64,000 bases of DNA. Source: an uncultured Gammaproteobacteria bacterium. Its GTDB lineage: Bacteria; Pseudomonadota; Gammaproteobacteria; Chromatiales; Chromatiaceae. Positions 49,591 to 55,717 of the stretch are shown one piece after another. Every line of letters begins with the position of its first letter. The stretch's first letter is position 1. A program made the position numbers and the translations under genes. Under the pieces are notes generated by a model. It was not told where the DNA came from and ran no database searches. It was given only the letters and a program-made list of their open reading frames with translations. The stretch covers positions 16,457 through 80,456 of the forward strand of contig CAVPHF010000041.1 in assembly GCA_963704155.1 (NCBI GenBank). Reading direction: 5' to 3'.

Positions 49591-50334
49591 ATGCCTGAGA
49601 ATAGCCAACCCGGTAGCGAGATGACGCCTGTCGCCTGCCATGAGTGCGACCTGCTGCAGCTGCTGCCCGACCTTTCGGCTGGCGGCAAGGCAAGCTGTTC
49701 TCGCTGCGGTTGCACGCTCGCAACCCGCCCCGTCGACCCGATCGAACGCCCTCTCGCGCTCGGCATCGCTGCCTTGCTGGTGTTGGTCGTAGCCAATACG
49801 TCGCCGTTGATGGGGCTGTCCGCCGTGGGTCGGCATGCGAGCACAACGATCATCGGCGGCGCCTACCAGATGTGGCTCGAGGGGCAGGAGGTGACTGCCG
49901 TGATCGTGGCCTTTTGCGCGGTCATCGCCCCCGCCGGCTATCTGTTGTGCCTATTGATCGTGCTGTTCGCGGTGCGTCGACCACCCGCGCCAAGCTGGGT
50001 CGGCGGCATGCTGCGCTGGGCCGAGCGCGCGCGGCCTTGGGCGATGACCGAGGTGATGATGCTCGGCATCATGGTGGCGCTGATCAAGATCGCGGACCTG
50101 GCCAAGGTGGAGGCCGGCATCGGAATGTATGCGGTCGGCGTGTTGATGCTGCTCTTTCCCGCGATCCTGAGTAGCGTCGATACCGAGGAGCTGTGGGCGA
50201 GAGTGGCCTGGCACGAATCCGAACCAGAAGCCGACCCCGCTACCGAACGGGAACGCATATCCCGGCAAACACCTGATGTGATAGGCAGCTCAGAACGCCA
50301 CCCCGGCGAGCCCCCATCCGAACGAGCCCCTTGA
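49591..50334 (+). CDS. pqiA: PqiA-family membrane protein (first half-gene)
   Basis: N-terminal Cys pairs (CHECDLL...CSRCG) followed by 4 TM helices, forming one PqiA domain. Confidence 0.85.
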   Translation: MPENSQPGSEMTPVACHECDLLQLLPDLSAGGKASCSRCGCTLATRPVDPIERPLALGIAALLVLVVANTSPLMGLSAVGRHASTTIIGGAYQMWLEGQEVTAVIVAFCAVIAPAGYLLCLLIVLFAVRRPPAPSWVGGMLRWAERARPWAMTEVMMLGIMVALIKIADLAKVEAGIGMYAVGVLMLLFPAILSSVDTEELWARVAWHESEPEADPATERERISRQTPDVIGSSERHPGEPPSERAP

Positions 50335-51017
50335 TGACGGCAGCACCCCTCACCGCGATCAAGGCCGGACTAGTGTCCTGTGAGACCTGCGGACTCTTGA
50401 CGCAACCGGCGAGCCTGGCCGAGCCCGGGTTCTGTCCCCGCTGTGGAAGCGAGCTCGAATCACGCCGTCACCGCTCCATCGAGCGGACCTGGGCGCTCGT
50501 CATTGCTGCTGCAATCTGCTACATCCCGGCAAACATGCTGCCGGTGCTCGGCACCACCACGCTCGGGTCGACCGAGTACGACACCATCATGGGCGGCGTG
50601 GTGTTCCTCTTTACCTCCGGGTCCTGGCCGCTGGCGCTGATCGTCTTGATCGCGAGCGTGATGGTTCCGCTCGGTAAGTTGGTCGCGCTAGGCTATTTGC
50701 TGATCACGGTCCAGCGGGGCTCGATACAGGGCGGCAGGCAGCGAACCCGGCTCTACCGCATGGTGGAGCTTGTCGGCCGCTGGTCGATGCTGGATGTCTT
50801 CGTCGACACCTTCACGGTCGCGCTGGTGCAACTGAACCCACTGATGTCCGTGCACCCCGGCCCTGGCGTGCTGTTTTTCGCCGCCGTGGTGGTACTGACG
50901 ATGATCGCCGCGAGCACCTTTGATCCCCGCCTCATTTGGGATGCCACTTCGGAAGCCGGTTCTGAACCGGCCCCACTCAAAGAGAACGGTCCGCAACAGG
51001 AGTCCAACCTTGGCTGA
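50334..51017 (+). CDS. pqiA: PqiA-family membrane protein (second half-gene)
   Basis: Second PqiA domain (CETCGLL...CPRCG, then TM helices). The start ATG at 50334 overlaps the preceding stop. Confidence 0.85.
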   Translation: MTAAPLTAIKAGLVSCETCGLLTQPASLAEPGFCPRCGSELESRRHRSIERTWALVIAAAICYIPANMLPVLGTTTLGSTEYDTIMGGVVFLFTSGSWPLALIVLIASVMVPLGKLVALGYLLITVQRGSIQGGRQRTRLYRMVELVGRWSMLDVFVDTFTVALVQLNPLMSVHPGPGVLFFAAVVVLTMIAASTFDPRLIWDATSEAGSEPAPLKENGPQQESNLG

Positions 51018-52680
51018 AGTCATCGACGGCCAGCAACTGCCGCGCGCAACCCTGACGCCCAAACGGCGTGGCCGGCTCTCGGCGGTTTGGCTCATTCCGC
51101 TCTTTGCCGCCCTGGTCGCGGTCGGCATCGCGGTCAATCGGATACTGAACGAGGGACCGACAATCAGCATCCTGTTCAAAACCGCCGAGGGCGTCGAGGC
51201 CGGCAAGACCTTCATCAAGTACAAGGATGTCAAGATCGGCGAGGTCTCCGCGGTGGAGCTGCACGACAACTTCTCCAAGGTGCTGGTCACCGCGAAGATC
51301 GACAAACATGCCGAGGACCTGATGGTGAAGGACGCCAGTTTCTGGGTGGTTCAGCCGCGGGTCACGCTGAGCGGCGTCTCCGGTCTGGGCACGCTGTTGT
51401 CGGGCAACTACATCGGCTTCGAGCAGGGCAAGTCCAAGGAGAGACACCGCCGCTTTACCGGGCTCGAGGTCGCGCCGGTGATCACGACCGATCAACCGGG
51501 CCGTCAGTTTGCGCTGACGGCCGACGATCTGGGCTCGCTCGGGATCGGCTCGCCAGTCTATTTTCGTCGTCTCCAGGTCGGGCAGGTCATCGCCTACAAG
51601 CTTGCCGCCAACGGCGAGTCAGTCGAGTTCCAGGTCTTCGTCAACGCCCCCTACGACCGCTTCATCAGCGCGGAGACACGCTTTTGGAATGCCAGCGGCC
51701 TGGATGTCTCGCTCGGCGCGGATGGCGTCGATGTGCGCACCCAGTCACTGGTGTCGGTGCTGATCGGCGGGGTTGCCTTCGAGACGCCGACCTTCGTCGC
51801 TGAAGGCGAGCCCGCGGCCGCAGACAGCACATTCGCCCTGTTCGCGGACCGGGCCACCGCGATGAAGCAACCGCAGGCCATCGCAAGACGCTACATCCTC
51901 TATTTCAACGACTCCCTGCGAGGATTGTCCGTCGGTGCCCCGGTCACGCTGCTCGGTCTGCAGGCCGGCGAGGTCACCGACGTCGGCTTTGAGATGGACC
52001 CCGAGACCCTGGTGCTGCGTGGCCGCGTCGAGTTTGTCGCCTATCCGGAGCGGCTCGTCGCACGTCTGCGCACCGCGGAGGCCGCGAAGACGCAGCAGGT
52101 GGTCGGCAACGAGCAGCAAAGCCACGCCTTCTTGCAACGGCTGATCGAAGAGCGCGGACTGCGCGGCCAATTGCGCAGCGGCAGCCTGATCACAGGGCAA
52201 CTCTACGTCGCCTTCGACTACGTTCCGGATGCCCCCAAGGTCAAGATCGACTGGAGCGCACCGATACCGGTGATCCCGACCGTCCCAAGCACCCTGCCCA
52301 ATCTCGAGGACAAGGTGACGGGCATTCTGGACAAGGTCGACAAGATCCCATTCGAGGCGATCGGCACAGAGGTCCAACAGGTCTTGGCGACCATTGACAA
52401 CGCGATCAAGGACATCGACAAGGCGGTAGATCACATCGACACCGACGTCACCCCGGAGCTGAAGTCCGCTCTCGTCGAGTTCCGACGCGCCTTGGCCTCC
52501 GCCGACCGCGTGTTGAAGAACACCGATGCCACTTTGCTAGGGCCGGATGCCCCCGTTCAGATCGAGTTGAGCAATGCCTTGCAAGAGGTGTCACGCGCCG
52601 CCCGTGCGGTGCGCGTGCTTGCCGACTACCTCGAACGCAACCCGGACGCGCTGATTCGCGGCAAGGGCAAGATGCCCTGA
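51010..52680 (+). CDS. pqiB: PqiB (multi-MCE-domain intermembrane transport protein)
   Basis: N-terminal TM helix (SAVWLIPLFAALVAVGIAV), three MCE repeats (e.g. FWVVQPRVTLSGVSGLGTLLSGNYIGF) and a C-terminal helical needle region. The start is probably the TTG at 51010; the upstream part of the track ORF overlaps pqiA. Confidence 0.88.
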   Translation: MAEVIDGQQLPRATLTPKRRGRLSAVWLIPLFAALVAVGIAVNRILNEGPTISILFKTAEGVEAGKTFIKYKDVKIGEVSAVELHDNFSKVLVTAKIDKHAEDLMVKDASFWVVQPRVTLSGVSGLGTLLSGNYIGFEQGKSKERHRRFTGLEVAPVITTDQPGRQFALTADDLGSLGIGSPVYFRRLQVGQVIAYKLAANGESVEFQVFVNAPYDRFISAETRFWNASGLDVSLGADGVDVRTQSLVSVLIGGVAFETPTFVAEGEPAAADSTFALFADRATAMKQPQAIARRYILYFNDSLRGLSVGAPVTLLGLQAGEVTDVGFEMDPETLVLRGRVEFVAYPERLVARLRTAEAAKTQQVVGNEQQSHAFLQRLIEERGLRGQLRSGSLITGQLYVAFDYVPDAPKVKIDWSAPIPVIPTVPSTLPNLEDKVTGILDKVDKIPFEAIGTEVQQVLATIDNAIKDIDKAVDHIDTDVTPELKSALVEFRRALASADRVLKNTDATLLGPDAPVQIELSNALQEVSRAARAVRVLADYLERNPDALIRGKGKMP

Positions 52681-52917: not shown

Positions 52918-54480
52918 ATGCCTCAAATCACCCGTTTCGGCCCCGGAAAAGCCTCGGATAACACGGGTGCCGGTGGCGTCACCTGGTTCGATATCGACAT
53001 GGCCGTCGACGCCAATCGCGAATGGCTGGTGGCCTGGCAAGAGATCAACGAGCAGACTAGAACGGCCTTGTTGGAGCCGGTGCGTTTCAACCACTACGAA
53101 CAAGTCCCTGACGGCACATTGCTAAGCATCAAGATGCTTCGTCCCGGGCAGACGGATGATGTCACCGACCTCGCCGACTTGAAGCTGCTGATTGGCTCGA
53201 CCAGGGCGGTTACGGTGCGATCCGGAACGATCGTCGCCGTGGACCAGTTACGACAGCACCTGTTGTCGGACAAGACGCTGGTGACGGCGGTGGATCTGTT
53301 GGGATTTCTGGTGTCGGCGATGACCAACCGGATGGAAGCGGTCATTTACGATCTGACGCAAGACATCGATGACGTCGAGGATGCATTACTCGACGGCAAT
53401 ACGGTGCCACCCCCGCAGTCGCTGAGCGAGCTGCGACGCCGAATCTTCCGCACCCGACGGCAAGTGAATGGCACGCAGCAGGTGCTTGCTCCGATGACCA
53501 CCGATCCCGCCCTGGCGCTGGATGCAGACGATCGTGAAACGCTTAACAGAGCGTCGAGTCATGTGGCCCGCTACTTGGGGAGTCTGGATGAATGCCGCAC
53601 GCGGGTGGAGATGCTGGAGGACCAGATCGAGGAGCAACGCTCGGACACCATGACCCGTTCCAGCCTCAATCTGAGCATCGTCGCCACCGTGTTCCTGCCG
53701 CTGAGCTTCATCACCGGCCTGCTCGGGATGAACGTCGGCGGCATCCCCGACGAGCATAACCCGCTTGGTTTCTGGCTGGTGACGGGGTTGTCTATCGTCA
53801 TTTCCGTGGTCGCTTGGCACTGGCTGCGTCGCAAGACGTACGATCGCTATCTGCCTCAGACAAGTGATGGCCAGAAAGCAATTGAGCGATCGATGGAGCC
53901 CCGTTCAATCAATGACTCAGGGTTGACGCCCGCCGTCAAGGAGGTAACCGAGGGTCCTAGCAAGCACCTTGACACCCTTCCCGACACCGAACTCGGGCGT
54001 CAAAACCAGCCAGATGGGAAGAACGTTCACAAACATCGCACTTTCTCCCGCAGCAAGCTTGTTAGCGTTCATGTCTTTGCACTGCTGCTGGCACTTGTGC
54101 TGTTCCTTTTTCACGTTGTGATCATCATCGATGTCGCTGGCGAGTTGATTCATCGCGAGGCATGGATGTCGGCGCATTTTGGTCAATATGCTGGCAAGGT
54201 CGCCCTGCTTGGCAGCTTTTTTGTTTTGTTCGCGGCTCACATGGCGGAATCCGCGGCATGGGGCCTGTTTCTGCGGGGGGCGCGGCTCATACAGAGCGTG
54301 ACGGAAGGCATCTACTTCACGGCCGCTTCGATCACGACGCTCGGTTACGGCGACGTCGTACTGAAATATCCTTGGCGACATCTCGGGACATTGATCGCGA
54401 TCACGGGGGTGCTGATGTTTGGCTGTTCGACGGCGTTCTTGTTCCTGGTCTTACAGGAAGTCTGGAAAATACACATCTAG
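52918..54480 (+). CDS. CorA/ZntB-family divalent-cation transporter fused to a C-terminal K+-channel pore domain
   Basis: Single 520-aa ORF. Residues 1-305 are a CorA-like cytoplasmic domain plus 2 TM helices with the GMN motif (LLGMNVGG, nt 53725-53733). Residues ~306-377 form a hydrophilic linker. Residues ~378-520 are TM helices flanking a pore helix and selectivity filter TTLGYGD (nt 54334-54354). Confidence 0.7.
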   Translation: MPQITRFGPGKASDNTGAGGVTWFDIDMAVDANREWLVAWQEINEQTRTALLEPVRFNHYEQVPDGTLLSIKMLRPGQTDDVTDLADLKLLIGSTRAVTVRSGTIVAVDQLRQHLLSDKTLVTAVDLLGFLVSAMTNRMEAVIYDLTQDIDDVEDALLDGNTVPPPQSLSELRRRIFRTRRQVNGTQQVLAPMTTDPALALDADDRETLNRASSHVARYLGSLDECRTRVEMLEDQIEEQRSDTMTRSSLNLSIVATVFLPLSFITGLLGMNVGGIPDEHNPLGFWLVTGLSIVISVVAWHWLRRKTYDRYLPQTSDGQKAIERSMEPRSINDSGLTPAVKEVTEGPSKHLDTLPDTELGRQNQPDGKNVHKHRTFSRSKLVSVHVFALLLALVLFLFHVVIIIDVAGELIHREAWMSAHFGQYAGKVALLGSFFVLFAAHMAESAAWGLFLRGARLIQSVTEGIYFTAASITTLGYGDVVLKYPWRHLGTLIAITGVLMFGCSTAFLFLVLQEVWKIHI

Positions 54481-54514: not shown

Positions 54515-55717
54515 CTAGAAACTCAGGCTCAGAGCAGTGCCCAGCTTGTAGTAGTTGTAATCGACGGGTACGGAAAAATCCACGTAGACGGCGTAGCCGC
54601 TGAGCGAGACTTGCTTGGTGATCGGCAGGTCGAAGAGCAGGTCGATCTCCAACGAATCGGCATCGACGGCGTTATTTCGGCCGATGCCAATGGCTGGGCT
54701 CAGCGTCAGCTGGCCGAGCTTCGCCGACCCGTTCAGGTAGAACTCGTAGGCGTTGTTGAGGTCGTTCAGCGGATAGAGGTTGTCCTCCACGAGCGGGTCG
54801 AAGACGTCGAACAGGCCGGCGGTGAGGTCGATGCGGCCGTTGCCGAGCCAATAGACGCCGCCACCGGCCGAGAATCGCTCACCGACCACTCCGGTATGCA
54901 CGCGGGCGGACCAGACATCTTCGTACTCGGGCTCGATCCGGCTCGGCACCAGGTTGTGGTGATAGGCCAGAATCAGCTCAGTGTCCCAACGCCGCTTGCC
55001 GCGTGCCGGCGGCAGATGTAGCGACAGGTCCAAGGTCGAGCCGACCACGGCCATAACCCCTTGCTGCCAGTTGACGAACGGCGATGCCTTGAACCGGCGG
55101 CCGACGGCCAAGTCCGCGACCTGCGCGGCGACAAAGACGGCCCCGGCGCCATCGTTAGCCTTGTCGACGTTCTGCCAGCCCGTGATGCCGCGGGCCTCAT
55201 AGCCGGTCTCAGAATACTTGATCCAGTGGTTCAGCGCGGCGACATGGATCGTGGCGCCCCTGGTTAGGGGCAGGTTCAGGGGCAGGTTCAGCCCGAGGCC
55301 CTGCTGGCTGTCGCCGTCGAGGACCGGGTTACCGGGAAAGGCACGCCGGCCCAAGGTCGCAGACAGTTCACTGGTGTCGGAATCGAAGTCGAGATAGAAC
55401 TCACGCAGGTCCGTCGGCACCGTGAAGACCTGCTCGAAGTCGCCCGGCTGTTGGCTCCAGAGGTCGACGATGCCTAACCCGGTGGCACCGGCGCCGAGCC
55501 CGTGCCAGCGCGGCGTCGTTGCCGTAGCCTCGAAGAAGCCCCAGGCCAGCCCGGCATCGGGTCCATTCTGGTCGAGCGTCGTATGCACCCCGGCGCCGAC
55601 CTTGCCGGAGAGTTCGCCGTTGTCGAGCATGGGCCAACGCCCATCGTCGGCGACGCTCGAGCCTAGGGCACACCAGAGTCCGCCGACGAGCACGAATTGA
55701 AAATACGCGTTCGGCAT
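54515..55717 (-). CDS. Outer-membrane beta-barrel protein, family unassigned
   Basis: 400 aa with a signal-like N-terminus (FQFVLVGGLWCALGSSVA), alternating strand patterns, Gly/aromatic girdle residues and a terminal ...LGTALSLSF. Confidence 0.55.
   Translation of the reverse strand: MPNAYFQFVLVGGLWCALGSSVADDGRWPMLDNGELSGKVGAGVHTTLDQNGPDAGLAWGFFEATATTPRWHGLGAGATGLGIVDLWSQQPGDFEQVFTVPTDLREFYLDFDSDTSELSATLGRRAFPGNPVLDGDSQQGLGLNLPLNLPLTRGATIHVAALNHWIKYSETGYEARGITGWQNVDKANDGAGAVFVAAQVADLAVGRRFKASPFVNWQQGVMAVVGSTLDLSLHLPPARGKRRWDTELILAYHHNLVPSRIEPEYEDVWSARVHTGVVGERFSAGGGVYWLGNGRIDLTAGLFDVFDPLVEDNLYPLNDLNNAYEFYLNGSAKLGQLTLSPAIGIGRNNAVDADSLEIDLLFDLPITKQVSLSGYAVYVDFSVPVDYNYYKLGTALSLSF

What the first reader, a model, noticed from the sequence alone, without database searches (positions are those of the whole stretch)
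52918..54480. CorA-family transporter fused in frame to a minimal K+-channel pore
One uninterrupted 520-aa ORF joins two normally separate channel types.
- Residues 1-305 look like a complete CorA/ZntB protein, with a cytoplasmic funnel domain and two TM helices carrying the GMN signature (LLGMNVGG).
- A hydrophilic ~70-aa linker follows.
- The last ~140 aa contain TM helices flanking a pore helix and a canonical K+ selectivity filter (SITTLGYGD).

CorA channels are pentamers and K+ channels are tetramers, so a covalent fusion is symmetry-mismatched, and I do not know of a characterised example. The 3' third of the gene is visibly lower in GC than the CorA part. That suggests a recently captured standalone Ion_trans_2 gene whose stop and intergenic region were read through.

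Internal Met codons could also yield a free minimal channel: Met326 at nt 53893, and Met417 at nt 54166, which would give a 104-aa M1-P-M2 protein.
Basis: partly seen in the sequence, partly recalled or inferred. Interest (0 to 1): 0.75.

Follow-up and report, generated by a model that had tools for sequence, protein, structure and literature searches.

The report
Conserved CorA–potassium channel fusion gene
One real, conserved gene joins a magnesium/zinc-type (CorA) channel to a small potassium channel through a floppy tether; relatives show it arose from two neighbouring genes and has since been split or trimmed again, and the way it is joined suggests the potassium pore sits upside-down in the membrane.

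Summary
The 520-aa ORF (52918-54480, +) is real, and both halves pass curated thresholds: CorA at 168 bits and Ion_trans_2 at 36 bits, with filter TTLGYGD. It is not an indel artefact. The same fusion occurs in at least 10 genomes, including the isolates Thiorhodovibrio frisius and Thiocystis violacea, in conserved pqiAAB/asmA synteny. Both modules are under purifying selection (ω about 0.14-0.42). The roughly 74-aa linker is disordered and nearly neutral (ω about 0.5-1.5), yet it stays open.

Relatives show the history. An adjacent corA + channel gene pair came first, then fusion. A clade then re-split by a single in-frame TAA at the codon aligned to K368. After that the CorA part decayed or was deleted, leaving standalone channels that keep linker relics and now occur in many phyla. 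"Recent capture" and conserved internal Met starts are not supported.

The channel module has three TM helices, not two. An extra conserved helix precedes M1, so tethering to CorA's cytoplasmic C-terminus predicts a pore whose filter faces the cytoplasm. Consistent with this, K+R charge bias flips sign between this subfamily (+4) and distant 3-TM relatives (-3).

The most likely mechanism is two independently assembling channels (pentamer and tetramer) that are co-expressed and co-localised by a flexible tether. The architecture is uncharacterised, and no experiments exist.

The parts
52918..54480 (+). Whole fusion gene, 520 codons plus TAA
   Evidence: ORF list. Full-length homologues of 509-527 aa at 66-93% identity carry both Pfam domains. 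Fused in at least 10 genomes.
52918..53664 (+). CorA/ZntB-type cytoplasmic funnel domain and stalk helix (residues 1-249)
   Evidence: Pfam CorA 20-305. AF2 pLDDT mostly above 90. Foldseek hits CmaX 7nh9 (E 1e-13) and ZntB 5n9y. ω = 0.14-0.27.
53665..53733 (+). CorA TM1 (residues 250-269) ending in the GMN motif (residues 270-272, nt 53725-53733)
   Evidence: Translation check. LLGMNV[GA]GIP is conserved in all relatives listed.
53764..53835 (+). CorA TM2 (residues 283-303) plus basic RRK (residues 304-306); the C-terminal end is cytoplasmic by homology with all solved CorA/ZntB structures
   Evidence: The orientation comes from established CorA structures (own knowledge).
53836..54057 (+). 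Hydrophilic linker, residues 307-380, with no hydrophobic segment. Its second half is homologous to the N-terminal tail of derived standalone channels.
   Evidence: AF2 pLDDT below 50 for residues 326-367. ω = 0.5-1.5, but no stops or frameshifts in 9 fused genes. Neutral simulation gives P(open) of 0.24 or less per lineage at 0.3 substitutions per site. Tail homology is shown.
54019..54021 (+). Codon K368 (AAG): the position where the split relatives carry the single in-frame TAA
   Evidence: In-frame translations of L001-L004, junction DNA, coordinate check.
54058..54135 (+). Extra transmembrane helix 'TMa' (residues 381-406) preceding M1, with conserved His399 and Asp405
   Evidence: Invariant or near-invariant columns in A1 and A3. 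AF2 gives a 35-residue helix in a tight hairpin with M1, pLDDT 82-94.
54199..54273 (+). M1 (outer helix) of the K-channel pore, residues 428-452, with conserved His441-x2-Glu444
   Evidence: KcsA alignment over 423-508. AF2 models. Conservation.
54298..54354 (+). Pore helix (residues 461-472) and selectivity filter TTLGYGD (residues 473-479, nt 54334-54354)
   Evidence: Pfam Ion_trans_2. Profile alignment to the Kv1.2 pore helix and filter, E 3e-4. The filter is conserved in 118 homologues.
54376..54474 (+). M2 (inner helix), residues 487-519, with the family-invariant FGCSTAFLF motif; only about 3-7 residues follow the membrane
   Evidence: AF2. Invariant columns. Mean C-tail length 7.1 aa.

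Best explanation
This is a genuine, long-conserved gene that encodes one polypeptide made of two autonomous ion-channel modules. The first is a CorA-superfamily divalent-cation channel closest to ZntB/CmaX, with an intact GMN motif. The second is a small 3-TM K+-channel module (TMa-M1-P-M2, filter TTLGYGD). A disordered cytoplasmic tether of about 74 aa joins them.

The gene arose from an adjacent corA-channel gene pair by loss of the corA stop codon. In this window the channel module has no start codon of its own, so the fusion is what expresses it.

I infer that each module folds and oligomerises with its own symmetry: CorA as a pentamer and the K+ pore as a tetramer. The tether then gives 1:1 synthesis and forced co-localisation or cross-linking, not rigid allosteric coupling. 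The physiological link is probably ion homeostasis, with K+ conductance accompanying electrogenic divalent-cation flux. This fits the ClC/MscS/K-channel-rich neighbourhoods seen in relatives.

Exactly one TM helix (TMa) lies between CorA's cytoplasmic C-terminus and M1. I therefore infer that M1 runs from outside to inside and that the selectivity-filter mouth faces the cytoplasm, which is an inverted K+-channel orientation.

Shown: the gene, the domains, conservation, selection, evolutionary order and charge bias. Inferred: oligomeric states, independence of the modules, ion specificities, orientation and physiological role.
For: - Domains and fold.
- Conserved fusion in at least 10 genomes, including isolates.
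- Synteny: pqiA-pqiA-pqiB upstream at 77-92% identity, asmA downstream.
- Selection: ω is 0.14-0.27 for CorA, 0.23-0.42 for the channel and 0.5-1.5 for the linker, with the frame kept. An open linker is unlikely under neutrality.
- Disordered linker.
- Ancestral pair: outgroup 309-aa CorA with an adjacent or nearby channel gene of the same family, one in-frame TAG between them in L007/L008.
- Split forms equal the fused gene plus one TAA, with a restart codon and Shine-Dalgarno sequence.
- The split/alone clade is nested within the fused forms in the channel tree (fused forms monophyletic in 0/200 bootstraps; fused plus derived in 179/200) and in the CorA tree.
- Deletion relics: P0118 begins MPEITR and then jumps into the linker; CorA remnants in L014 and L040.
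- No in-frame start between codons 337 and 393.
- Orientation: conserved hydrophobic 26-aa TMa. K+R bias is +4.0 in this subfamily (n=145) versus -3.1 in distant 3-TM relatives (n=58, 76% negative), which have basic C-tails up to 107 aa.
- Ion-channel neighbourhoods.
Against: - There is no experimental evidence of any kind: no protein, topology, oligomer or ion-flux data.
- The near-neutral linker and the repeated undoing of the fusion (split, frameshift, CorA deletion) argue that covalent linkage itself brings little benefit. ORF maintenance may only reflect the need to translate the channel.
- The 5:4 stoichiometry leaves unpaired subunits unless complexes cross-link, and that could be costly.
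- Orientation rests on one hydrophobic helix, the positive-inside rule and monomer AF2 models. The TMa-M1 loop still carries about 2-4 K/R residues. A few distant relatives have conflicting charge signals, for example P0306 with both a basic N-tail and a basic C-tail.
- Foldseek E-values for the channel model are weak, 0.2-2.
- Only 2 of the 5 outgroup CorA loci inspected have the channel nearby, so ancestral pairing is likely but not certain.
Confidence: 0.6

Rival explanations
1. Artefact or very recent accident: a sequencing or assembly indel, or a fresh stop-codon loss, joined two ordinary genes, and the fusion has no biological standing.
For: The linker evolves almost neutrally. GC and GC3 are lowest in the linker. 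Some relatives are two genes separated by one stop.
Against: The same fusion with the same junction occurs in at least 10 independent genomes, including isolate assemblies of Thiorhodovibrio frisius and Thiocystis violacea, and in about 25 protein clusters at 66-93% identity. Synteny is conserved. Both halves are under purifying selection with matching dS.
Confidence: 0.02
2. The fusion is only a translational vehicle. The polypeptide is cleaved in the linker, or the channel is also made from an internal start such as Met417, so the working proteins are separate, as in the split relatives.
For: The linker is disordered and protease-accessible. Split relatives function with a coupled restart. 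GAGG lies 5 nt before ATG417 in the window. The linker sequence is near neutral.
Against: Codon 417 is CTG in 6 of 9 fused genes, and a start there would drop the highly conserved TMa. There is no in-frame start between codons 337 and 393. No conserved protease motif was identified. The linker length is conserved at 64-77 codons.
Confidence: 0.2
3. A truly coupled hetero-symmetric machine: the CorA cytoplasmic funnel senses divalent cations and gates the tethered K+ pore (or the reverse) through the linker, possibly using the conserved P-[DE]-T-E-x-G-[RH]-Q-x(2,3)-D-G segment.
For: The ORF is kept open across lineages. The second half of the linker is recognisably conserved even in derived standalone channels. 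The gene pair is associated in three arrangements.
Against: A disordered, near-neutral linker of about 74 aa is a poor force or allostery transmitter. The 5:4 symmetry mismatch argues against it. The channel survives and spreads widely after losing CorA. Most of the channel family is standalone.
Confidence: 0.12
4. The C-terminal module is not a conducting K+ channel in the fusion. It may be mis-oriented, or serve as a membrane anchor or oligomerisation tag, and only the CorA part works.
For: The forced N-in topology could be incompatible with function if the family is canonically oriented. One relative (P0028) has a degenerate filter, TMLGCDG.
Against: In the fused genes the channel ω is 0.23-0.42, and the filter, pore helix and M2 motif are conserved. 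The subfamily's charge bias matches the N-in orientation even in standalone members.
Confidence: 0.06

Closest known systems
ZntB / CmaX branch of the CorA (MIT) superfamily (PDB 5n9y, 7nh9)
   Same: Residues 1-306 share the funnel domain, stalk helix, two TM helices and a basic C-terminal end. Sequence E-values are about 1e-25 and Foldseek target TM-scores are 0.73-0.74.
   Different: It carries GMN, as Mg2+/Co2+ CorA does, rather than the GVN/GIN seen in the ZntB and CmaX alignments. It scores below the NCBIfam equivalog cutoffs for both ZntB (141 vs 292) and CorA (91 vs 200.75). It has a 214-aa C-terminal extension that no characterised member has. Its substrate is unknown.
Small prokaryotic K+ channels of the KcsA/NaK/MthK-pore type (Pfam Ion_trans_2, TC 1.A.1)
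   Same: M1, pore helix, TTLGYGD and M2 are present. The Pfam hit is above threshold. The best structural matches are K-channel pores.
   Different: An extra conserved N-terminal TM helix makes it 3 TM. It has a family-specific intramembrane His / His-x2-Glu / FGCSTAFLF signature. There is essentially no C-terminal tail. The inferred orientation is opposite (N-in, C-out). It is covalently attached to a pentameric channel family.
GluR0 / ionotropic glutamate receptor pore (an 'inverted K+ channel' inserted into a binding protein)
   Same: The P-loop is inferred to enter from the cytoplasmic side. GluR0 is K+-selective, and the literature postulates a free inverted K+ channel as its ancestor (PMC6385376).
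   Different: There is no periplasmic ligand-binding S1/S2 domain. No detectable specific sequence relationship to iGluRs was found in the PDB profile search. Orientation here is inferred, not measured.
Adjacent corA + small-channel gene pairs in relatives (L007/L008, L094; split forms L001-L004)
   Same: The same two protein families occur in the same order and strand. In L001-L004 and L007/L008 they even share the reading frame, with a single stop between them.
   Different: They are two polypeptides instead of one. The split forms use a coupled restart, for example AGGAGG 9 nt before a TTG that directly follows the TAA in L002.

Membership tests
CorA / MIT superfamily (Pfam PF01544) | Profile match above the curated threshold over the whole domain | tested here: met
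   168.3 bits vs cutoff 27, residues 20-305, profile positions 3-292 of 292.
CorA / MIT superfamily (Pfam PF01544) | G-x-N (GMN) motif at the periplasmic end of TM1, followed by a second TM helix | tested here: met
   GMN at residues 270-272, TM1 at 250-269, TM2 at 283-303. Conserved in relatives.
CorA / MIT superfamily (Pfam PF01544) | Cytoplasmic alpha/beta funnel domain and long stalk helix fold | tested here: met
   AF2 model with pLDDT mostly above 90. Foldseek hits CmaX at E 1e-13 (TMt 0.73) and ZntB (TMt 0.74).
CorA / MIT superfamily (Pfam PF01544) | Homopentameric assembly | not testable with these tools
   Only monomer prediction is available. The PDB homologues are deposited with 5 chains.
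ZntB equivalog (NCBIfam NF007092) | Score at or above the equivalog cutoff | tested here: not met
   141.1 bits vs cutoff 292.
CorA Mg2+/Co2+ transporter equivalog (TIGR00383) | Score at or above the equivalog cutoff | tested here: not met
   91.1 bits vs cutoff 200.75.
K+ channel pore (Pfam PF07885 Ion_trans_2; TC 1.A.1) | Profile match above the curated threshold | tested here: met
   36 bits vs cutoff 22.5, residues 457-512. Family members score 28-51 bits.
K+ channel pore (Pfam PF07885 Ion_trans_2; TC 1.A.1) | T-x-G-[YF]-G-D selectivity-filter signature after a pore helix | tested here: met
   TTLGYGD at residues 473-479. G and D are invariant and Y is at least 90% conserved in 118 homologues. 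It aligns to the Kv1.2 filter.
K+ channel pore (Pfam PF07885 Ion_trans_2; TC 1.A.1) | M1 - pore helix - M2 fold | tested here: inconclusive
   The AF2 channel-only model has pLDDT 89.2 with the expected helices. All top Foldseek hits are K-channel pores (probability up to 0.97, TMt about 0.6 to NaK), but E-values are only 0.2-2.
K+ channel pore (Pfam PF07885 Ion_trans_2; TC 1.A.1) | Canonical orientation: both termini of M1-P-M2 cytoplasmic, P-loop entering from outside | tested here: inconclusive
   Connectivity (cytoplasmic linker plus a single TMa) and K+R bias of +4.0, versus -3.1 in distant relatives, argue against it. No experimental topology exists.
K+ channel pore (Pfam PF07885 Ion_trans_2; TC 1.A.1) | Tetrameric assembly and K+ selectivity | not testable with these tools
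   Needs a multimer model, a structure or electrophysiology.
iGluR / GluR0-type channels | Periplasmic bilobed ligand-binding domain (S1/S2) flanking the pore | tested here: not met
   There is no such domain. Only CorA and Ion_trans_2 are detected, and no iGluR appears in the profile search of PDB sequences.
Anti-phage defence CorA-like effectors (PADLOC) | Significant match to a defence-system CorA model, and a defence-gene context | tested here: not met
   Only a 19-bit match to the TM region (E 1.4e-4). The neighbours are pqiAAB, a beta-barrel-like ORF and asmA.

The most novel reading that the evidence does not exclude
The CorA fusion acts as a natural topology reporter. It would reveal a subfamily of small bacterial K+ channels (TMa-M1-P-M2, basic N-tail, almost no C-tail) that sits in the membrane upside-down relative to all characterised K+ channels and relative to its own distant 3-TM relatives. 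That is the kind of free-living 'inverted K+ channel' long postulated as the ancestor of glutamate-receptor pores. In the fused form it is also covalently tied to a pentameric channel, so the protein must resolve a 5:4 symmetry mismatch, for example by forming cross-linked channel clusters.
Probability: 0.45. Interest if true: 0.82.

Novelty: new variant of a known kind. Interest (0 to 1): 0.62.

Why it matters
Both domains are textbook families, but I found no description of their fusion. This gene offers three things that can be tested.

1. It is a natural single-chain fusion of a pentameric and a tetrameric channel. This asks how cells assemble symmetry-mismatched fusions and whether forced co-clustering of a divalent-cation channel and a K+ channel has a physiological role.

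2. It is a well-resolved case of gene-pair to fusion to re-fission to partner loss, with the junction changes visible at single-codon resolution.

3. It predicts a K+-channel subfamily with inverted membrane orientation, backed by a sign flip of the positive-inside bias within one homologous family. If confirmed, this would give an experimental model for how P-loop channels can invert, which is the step assumed in the origin of glutamate-receptor pores (PMC6385376).

The proteins are small and bacterial, and they occur in cultivated purple sulfur bacteria, so the experiments are feasible.

Tried and rejected
- Indel or assembly artefact: rejected, because the fusion is present in many independent genomes.
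- Recent capture explaining the lower 3' GC: rejected. Synteny is conserved and both halves have similar dS. The GC3 dip is strongest in the relaxed linker, and the whole gene is below its neighbours.
- Conserved internal initiation at Met326 or Met417: rejected.
- Defence-system CorA effector: only a weak TM-region PADLOC hit and no defence context.
- Literature: three searches for a CorA-K-channel fusion or a 3-TM K+ channel found nothing relevant. The first was swamped by 'coral' word-start matches.
- Specific sequence link to iGluR pores: none seen in the PDB profile search.
- Foldseek of the channel model: all top hits are K-channel pores, but none is statistically strong.
- Using extra domains on family members as orientation reporters: no Pfam domains were found in the N- or C-terminal extensions. 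Their charge composition was informative.
- The trees are neighbour-joining on 146 and 305 columns only. Support for the exact sister group of the derived clade is moderate (148/200).
- A simple promoter and terminator scan around the gene found nothing above the shuffled expectation. No clear Shine-Dalgarno sequence precedes the ATG at 52918.
Full report
**Observation**

The window holds an uninterrupted ORF at 52918-54480 (+) of 520 codons.
- Pfam places CorA on residues 20-305 (E 3e-49; 168 bits against a cutoff of 27).
- Pfam places Ion_trans_2 on residues 457-512 (E 6.6e-9; 36 bits against 22.5).
- NCBIfam scores the N-terminal part below the equivalog cutoffs of both ZntB (141 vs 292) and CorA (91 vs 200.75). 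It is therefore a distinct CorA-superfamily branch.
- The closest solved proteins are CmaX (7nh9) and ZntB (5n9y), each at E about 1e-25. KcsA aligns weakly over residues 423-508.

I verified the landmarks by translation:

| Feature | Residues |
|---|---|
| CorA TM1 | 250-269 |
| GMN motif | 270-272 |
| CorA TM2 | 283-303 |
| RRK | 304-306 |
| Hydrophilic linker | 307-380 |
| Hydrophobic helix TMa | 381-406 |
| M1 | 428-452 |
| Pore helix and TTLGYGD filter | 461-479 |
| M2 | 487-519 |

The modest GC drop in the 3' third is also real: 0.60-0.61 in CorA, 0.545 in the linker and 0.551 in the channel.

**Structure**

AlphaFold2 on a 144-sequence alignment gives a confident CorA body and a disordered stretch at 326-367 (pLDDT below 50). 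After that comes a helical hairpin (H378-412, H414-454), a pore helix (461-473) and M2 (487-519).
- Foldseek matches the model to CmaX (E 1e-13, target TM-score 0.73) and ZntB (0.74).
- The channel module modelled alone on 118 sequences reaches pLDDT 89.2.
- Its best PDB matches are all K-channel pores (Kv1.2-2.1, MlotiK1, KcsA, NaK at TMt about 0.6). They cover about 90-105 residues, and the E-values are weak at 0.2-2.
- A profile of the family hits the Kv1.2 pore helix and filter at E 3e-4.

**Is the fusion real?**

Yes. About 25 protein clusters of 509-527 aa at 66-93% identity carry both Pfam domains.

A scan of species-representative genomes with the channel alignment, classified by tblastn, finds a complete CorA and the channel in one ORF in the following:
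- the window;
- Thiorhodovibrio frisius (L005);
- Thiocystis violacea DSM 208 (L022);
- several gammaproteobacterial MAGs (L009/L010, L012, L018);
- Desulfobacterales and deltaproteobacterial MAGs (L030, L032, L033).

The closest fused loci share pqiA-pqiA-pqiB upstream at 77-92% identity. asmA lies downstream in L005 and L011. The window is therefore from a Chromatiaceae-like genome, and the fusion sits in a stable chromosomal context. An indel artefact and a 'recent capture' are both excluded.

**Selection**

In nine fused genes ω is 0.14-0.27 for CorA, 0.23-0.42 for the channel and 0.5-1.5 for the linker. The linker nevertheless stays in frame and stop-free at 64-77 codons. A neutral simulation gives a probability of 0.24 or less of staying open per lineage at 0.3 substitutions per site.

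In the window gene there is no in-frame ATG, GTG or TTG between codons 337 and 393. The complete channel module can therefore only be made as part of the fusion. This alone could explain why nonsense mutations in the linker are purged. Codon 417 is ATG in 3 of 9 fused genes and CTG in 6 of 9, so internal initiation there is not a conserved feature.

**History**

Relatives of 367 aa (CorA plus tail) are followed by a separate 139-143-aa Ion_trans_2 gene.
- Translating in the CorA frame runs straight into the channel through one TAA, aligned to window codon K368.
- In L002 an AGGAGG lies 9 nt before a TTG that directly follows the TAA.
- In L001 a GGAAGG precedes a GTG.

The outgroup CorA proteins of 309-312 aa vary:
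- the same channel family lies immediately downstream in L007/L008, with one in-frame TAG and 35 open codons between the genes;
- it lies one gene away in L094;
- it is absent in three other loci.

A channel-domain NJ tree puts standalone forms deepest. Fused forms come next as a grade. A large clade of split, CorA-remnant and 'alone' forms is nested within them. In bootstraps, fused plus derived forms are monophyletic in 179/200 replicates, and the fused forms alone are monophyletic in 0/200. The CorA-domain tree agrees: the 309-aa forms are the outgroup and the 367-aa 'tail' forms are nested inside the fused forms.

Relics confirm the direction of change:
- many 175-aa standalone channels start within a segment homologous to the second half of the linker;
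- P0118 begins MPEITR, which is the CorA N-terminus, and then jumps to the linker. This is an in-frame deletion of CorA codons 7 to about 357;
- L014 and L040 retain CorA fragments;
- P0259 joins PqiB to the channel's filter-M2 region.

These derived channels occur in Verrucomicrobiota, Planctomycetota, Acidobacteriota and other phyla at 60-70% identity, which implies horizontal spread.

An exhaustive profile search finds 573 channel clusters (at 50% identity) at E of 1e-10 or better. Only one CorA-fused representative appears among the best 150. The fusion is therefore rare and essentially of single origin.

The likely sequence is: gene pair, then fusion by stop loss, then one nonsense re-fission, then CorA decay and deletion.

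**Topology**

In all solved CorA/ZntB structures the C-terminus after TM2 is cytoplasmic (established knowledge). The linker has no hydrophobic segment. One conserved 26-residue hydrophobic helix (TMa) precedes M1 and forms a tight antiparallel hairpin with it in both AF2 models. This connectivity puts the N-terminus of M1 in the periplasm and the P-loop and filter mouth on the cytoplasmic side.

As an independent test I counted K+R on the two sides.
- In the window's subfamily the side holding the N-tail, the M1-P loop and the post-filter loop carries about 7.7 K+R. The other side carries 3.9.
- Per protein, the bias is +4.0 (n=145).
- Distant 3-TM relatives show the opposite pattern. They have an absent or neutral N-tail, a basic TMa-M1 loop and basic C-tails of up to 107 aa.
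- A hydropathy-based parse of the 50%-cluster representatives gives +2 to +5 for the six closest. For the 58 more distant ones the mean is -3.1, and 76% are negative.

The sign flip supports an inverted orientation for this subfamily. It remains an inference, and a few proteins give mixed signals (for example P0306).

**Mechanism**

I favour two autonomous channels joined by a flexible cytoplasmic tether. Purifying selection acts on each module, and the linker is disordered and near neutral. The channel persists and spreads after losing CorA. These points argue against rigid allosteric coupling and for co-expression and co-localisation.

The pentamer/tetramer mismatch is inferred from homology. 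It would be resolved by independent assembly with leftover or cross-linking subunits.

Relatives sit in neighbourhoods rich in ClC, MscS/MscK and other K+ channels. This suggests a role in ionic or osmotic homeostasis, perhaps K+ movement accompanying electrogenic divalent-cation flux. That role is speculative.

Rivals are ranked in the report: cleavage or internal initiation, true allosteric coupling, and a non-conducting anchor.

**Comparison and novelty**

The N-terminal part is a member of the CorA superfamily but not a ZntB or CorA equivalog. The C-terminal part is a member of the Ion_trans_2 K+-channel family by profile and signature. It has an extra TM helix and a family-specific His / His-x2-Glu / FGCSTAFLF signature.

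It works like, but is not a member of, the GluR0/iGluR pore class. The literature derives that class from an 'inverted K+ channel' (PMC6385376). This protein has no ligand-binding domain and shows no specific sequence link.

I found no paper describing the architecture. Public annotations call it a 'CorA family divalent cation transporter' or a 'zinc transporter'.

I rate it a new variant of known kinds and moderately to highly interesting. Everything beyond sequence, conservation and evolutionary order awaits experiment.

Noticed in passing
window 54058-54474 (channel module); alignments A1 and A3: The whole 3-TM channel family keeps a set of membrane-embedded polar residues: His399 in TMa, Asp405/Glu409 at its end, His441-x2-Glu444 in M1, and an invariant FGCSTAFLF motif with Cys503 in M2. 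These are classic metal or proton ligands and could form a Zn2+/pH-sensing or gating site, which is suggestive next to a ZntB-like partner.
   Followed up: partly
window 53968-54021 (linker residues about 351-368): Within the otherwise near-neutral linker, a short segment (LPDTELGRQNQPDG; consensus P-[DE]-[TN]-[EG]-x-G-[RH]-Q-x(2,3)-[SD]-G) is recognisable in fused, split and derived standalone forms. In split forms it ends the CorA protein. In 'alone' forms it starts the channel protein. It may be a short linear motif.
   Followed up: partly
window 49591-52680: PqiA is encoded as two separate single-domain genes (247 aa and 228 aa, overlapping by 4 nt), followed by a 586-aa MlaD-domain PqiB. 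The arrangement is conserved in relatives (L009, L012, L022, L095).
   Followed up: partly
window 54515-55717 (-): A convergent 400-aa ORF has no Pfam hit, a signal-peptide-like N-terminus and a C-terminal ...LSLSF, which looks like an outer-membrane beta-barrel. It is conserved at 80-85% identity in L011 and L012.
   Followed up: partly
L001-L004, L089, L091/L092, L005, L090: Relatives of the gene sit in 'ion-channel islands'. A voltage-gated ClC gene lies directly upstream, and MscS/MscK-type channels, DUF3302 and a further Ion_trans/Ion_trans_2 channel lie nearby. L090 has two copies of the derived channel about 3 kb apart.
   Followed up: partly
P0028 (479 aa, close to Thiorhodovibrio P0025): A fused homologue has a degenerate filter (SITMLGCDG instead of SITTLGFGD). 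This is either a decaying copy or an assembly error in a read-derived contig.
   Followed up: no
P0259 (269 aa); L011; L028, L037, L050, L056: There are further decay states of the locus. P0259 is a chimera of the PqiB N-terminus joined to the channel's filter-M2 region. L011 is an ORF with only CorA residues 166-310 plus the channel. L028, L037, L050 and L056 have frameshifted CorA and channel parts.
   Followed up: partly
L009 and L010 (one gammaproteobacterial MAG, HOU_bin.0101): Two contigs of the same MAG carry near-identical pqiAAB-fusion loci. This is either a true duplication or strain heterogeneity in the bin.
   Followed up: no
window 52918-54480 versus flanks: The whole fusion gene has lower GC (0.579; GC3 0.716) than its neighbours (0.63-0.67; GC3 0.77-0.83). 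dS to a Desulfobacterales MAG copy is only about 0.45-0.7. Both are compatible with past horizontal transfer of the gene despite its current stable synteny.
   Followed up: partly
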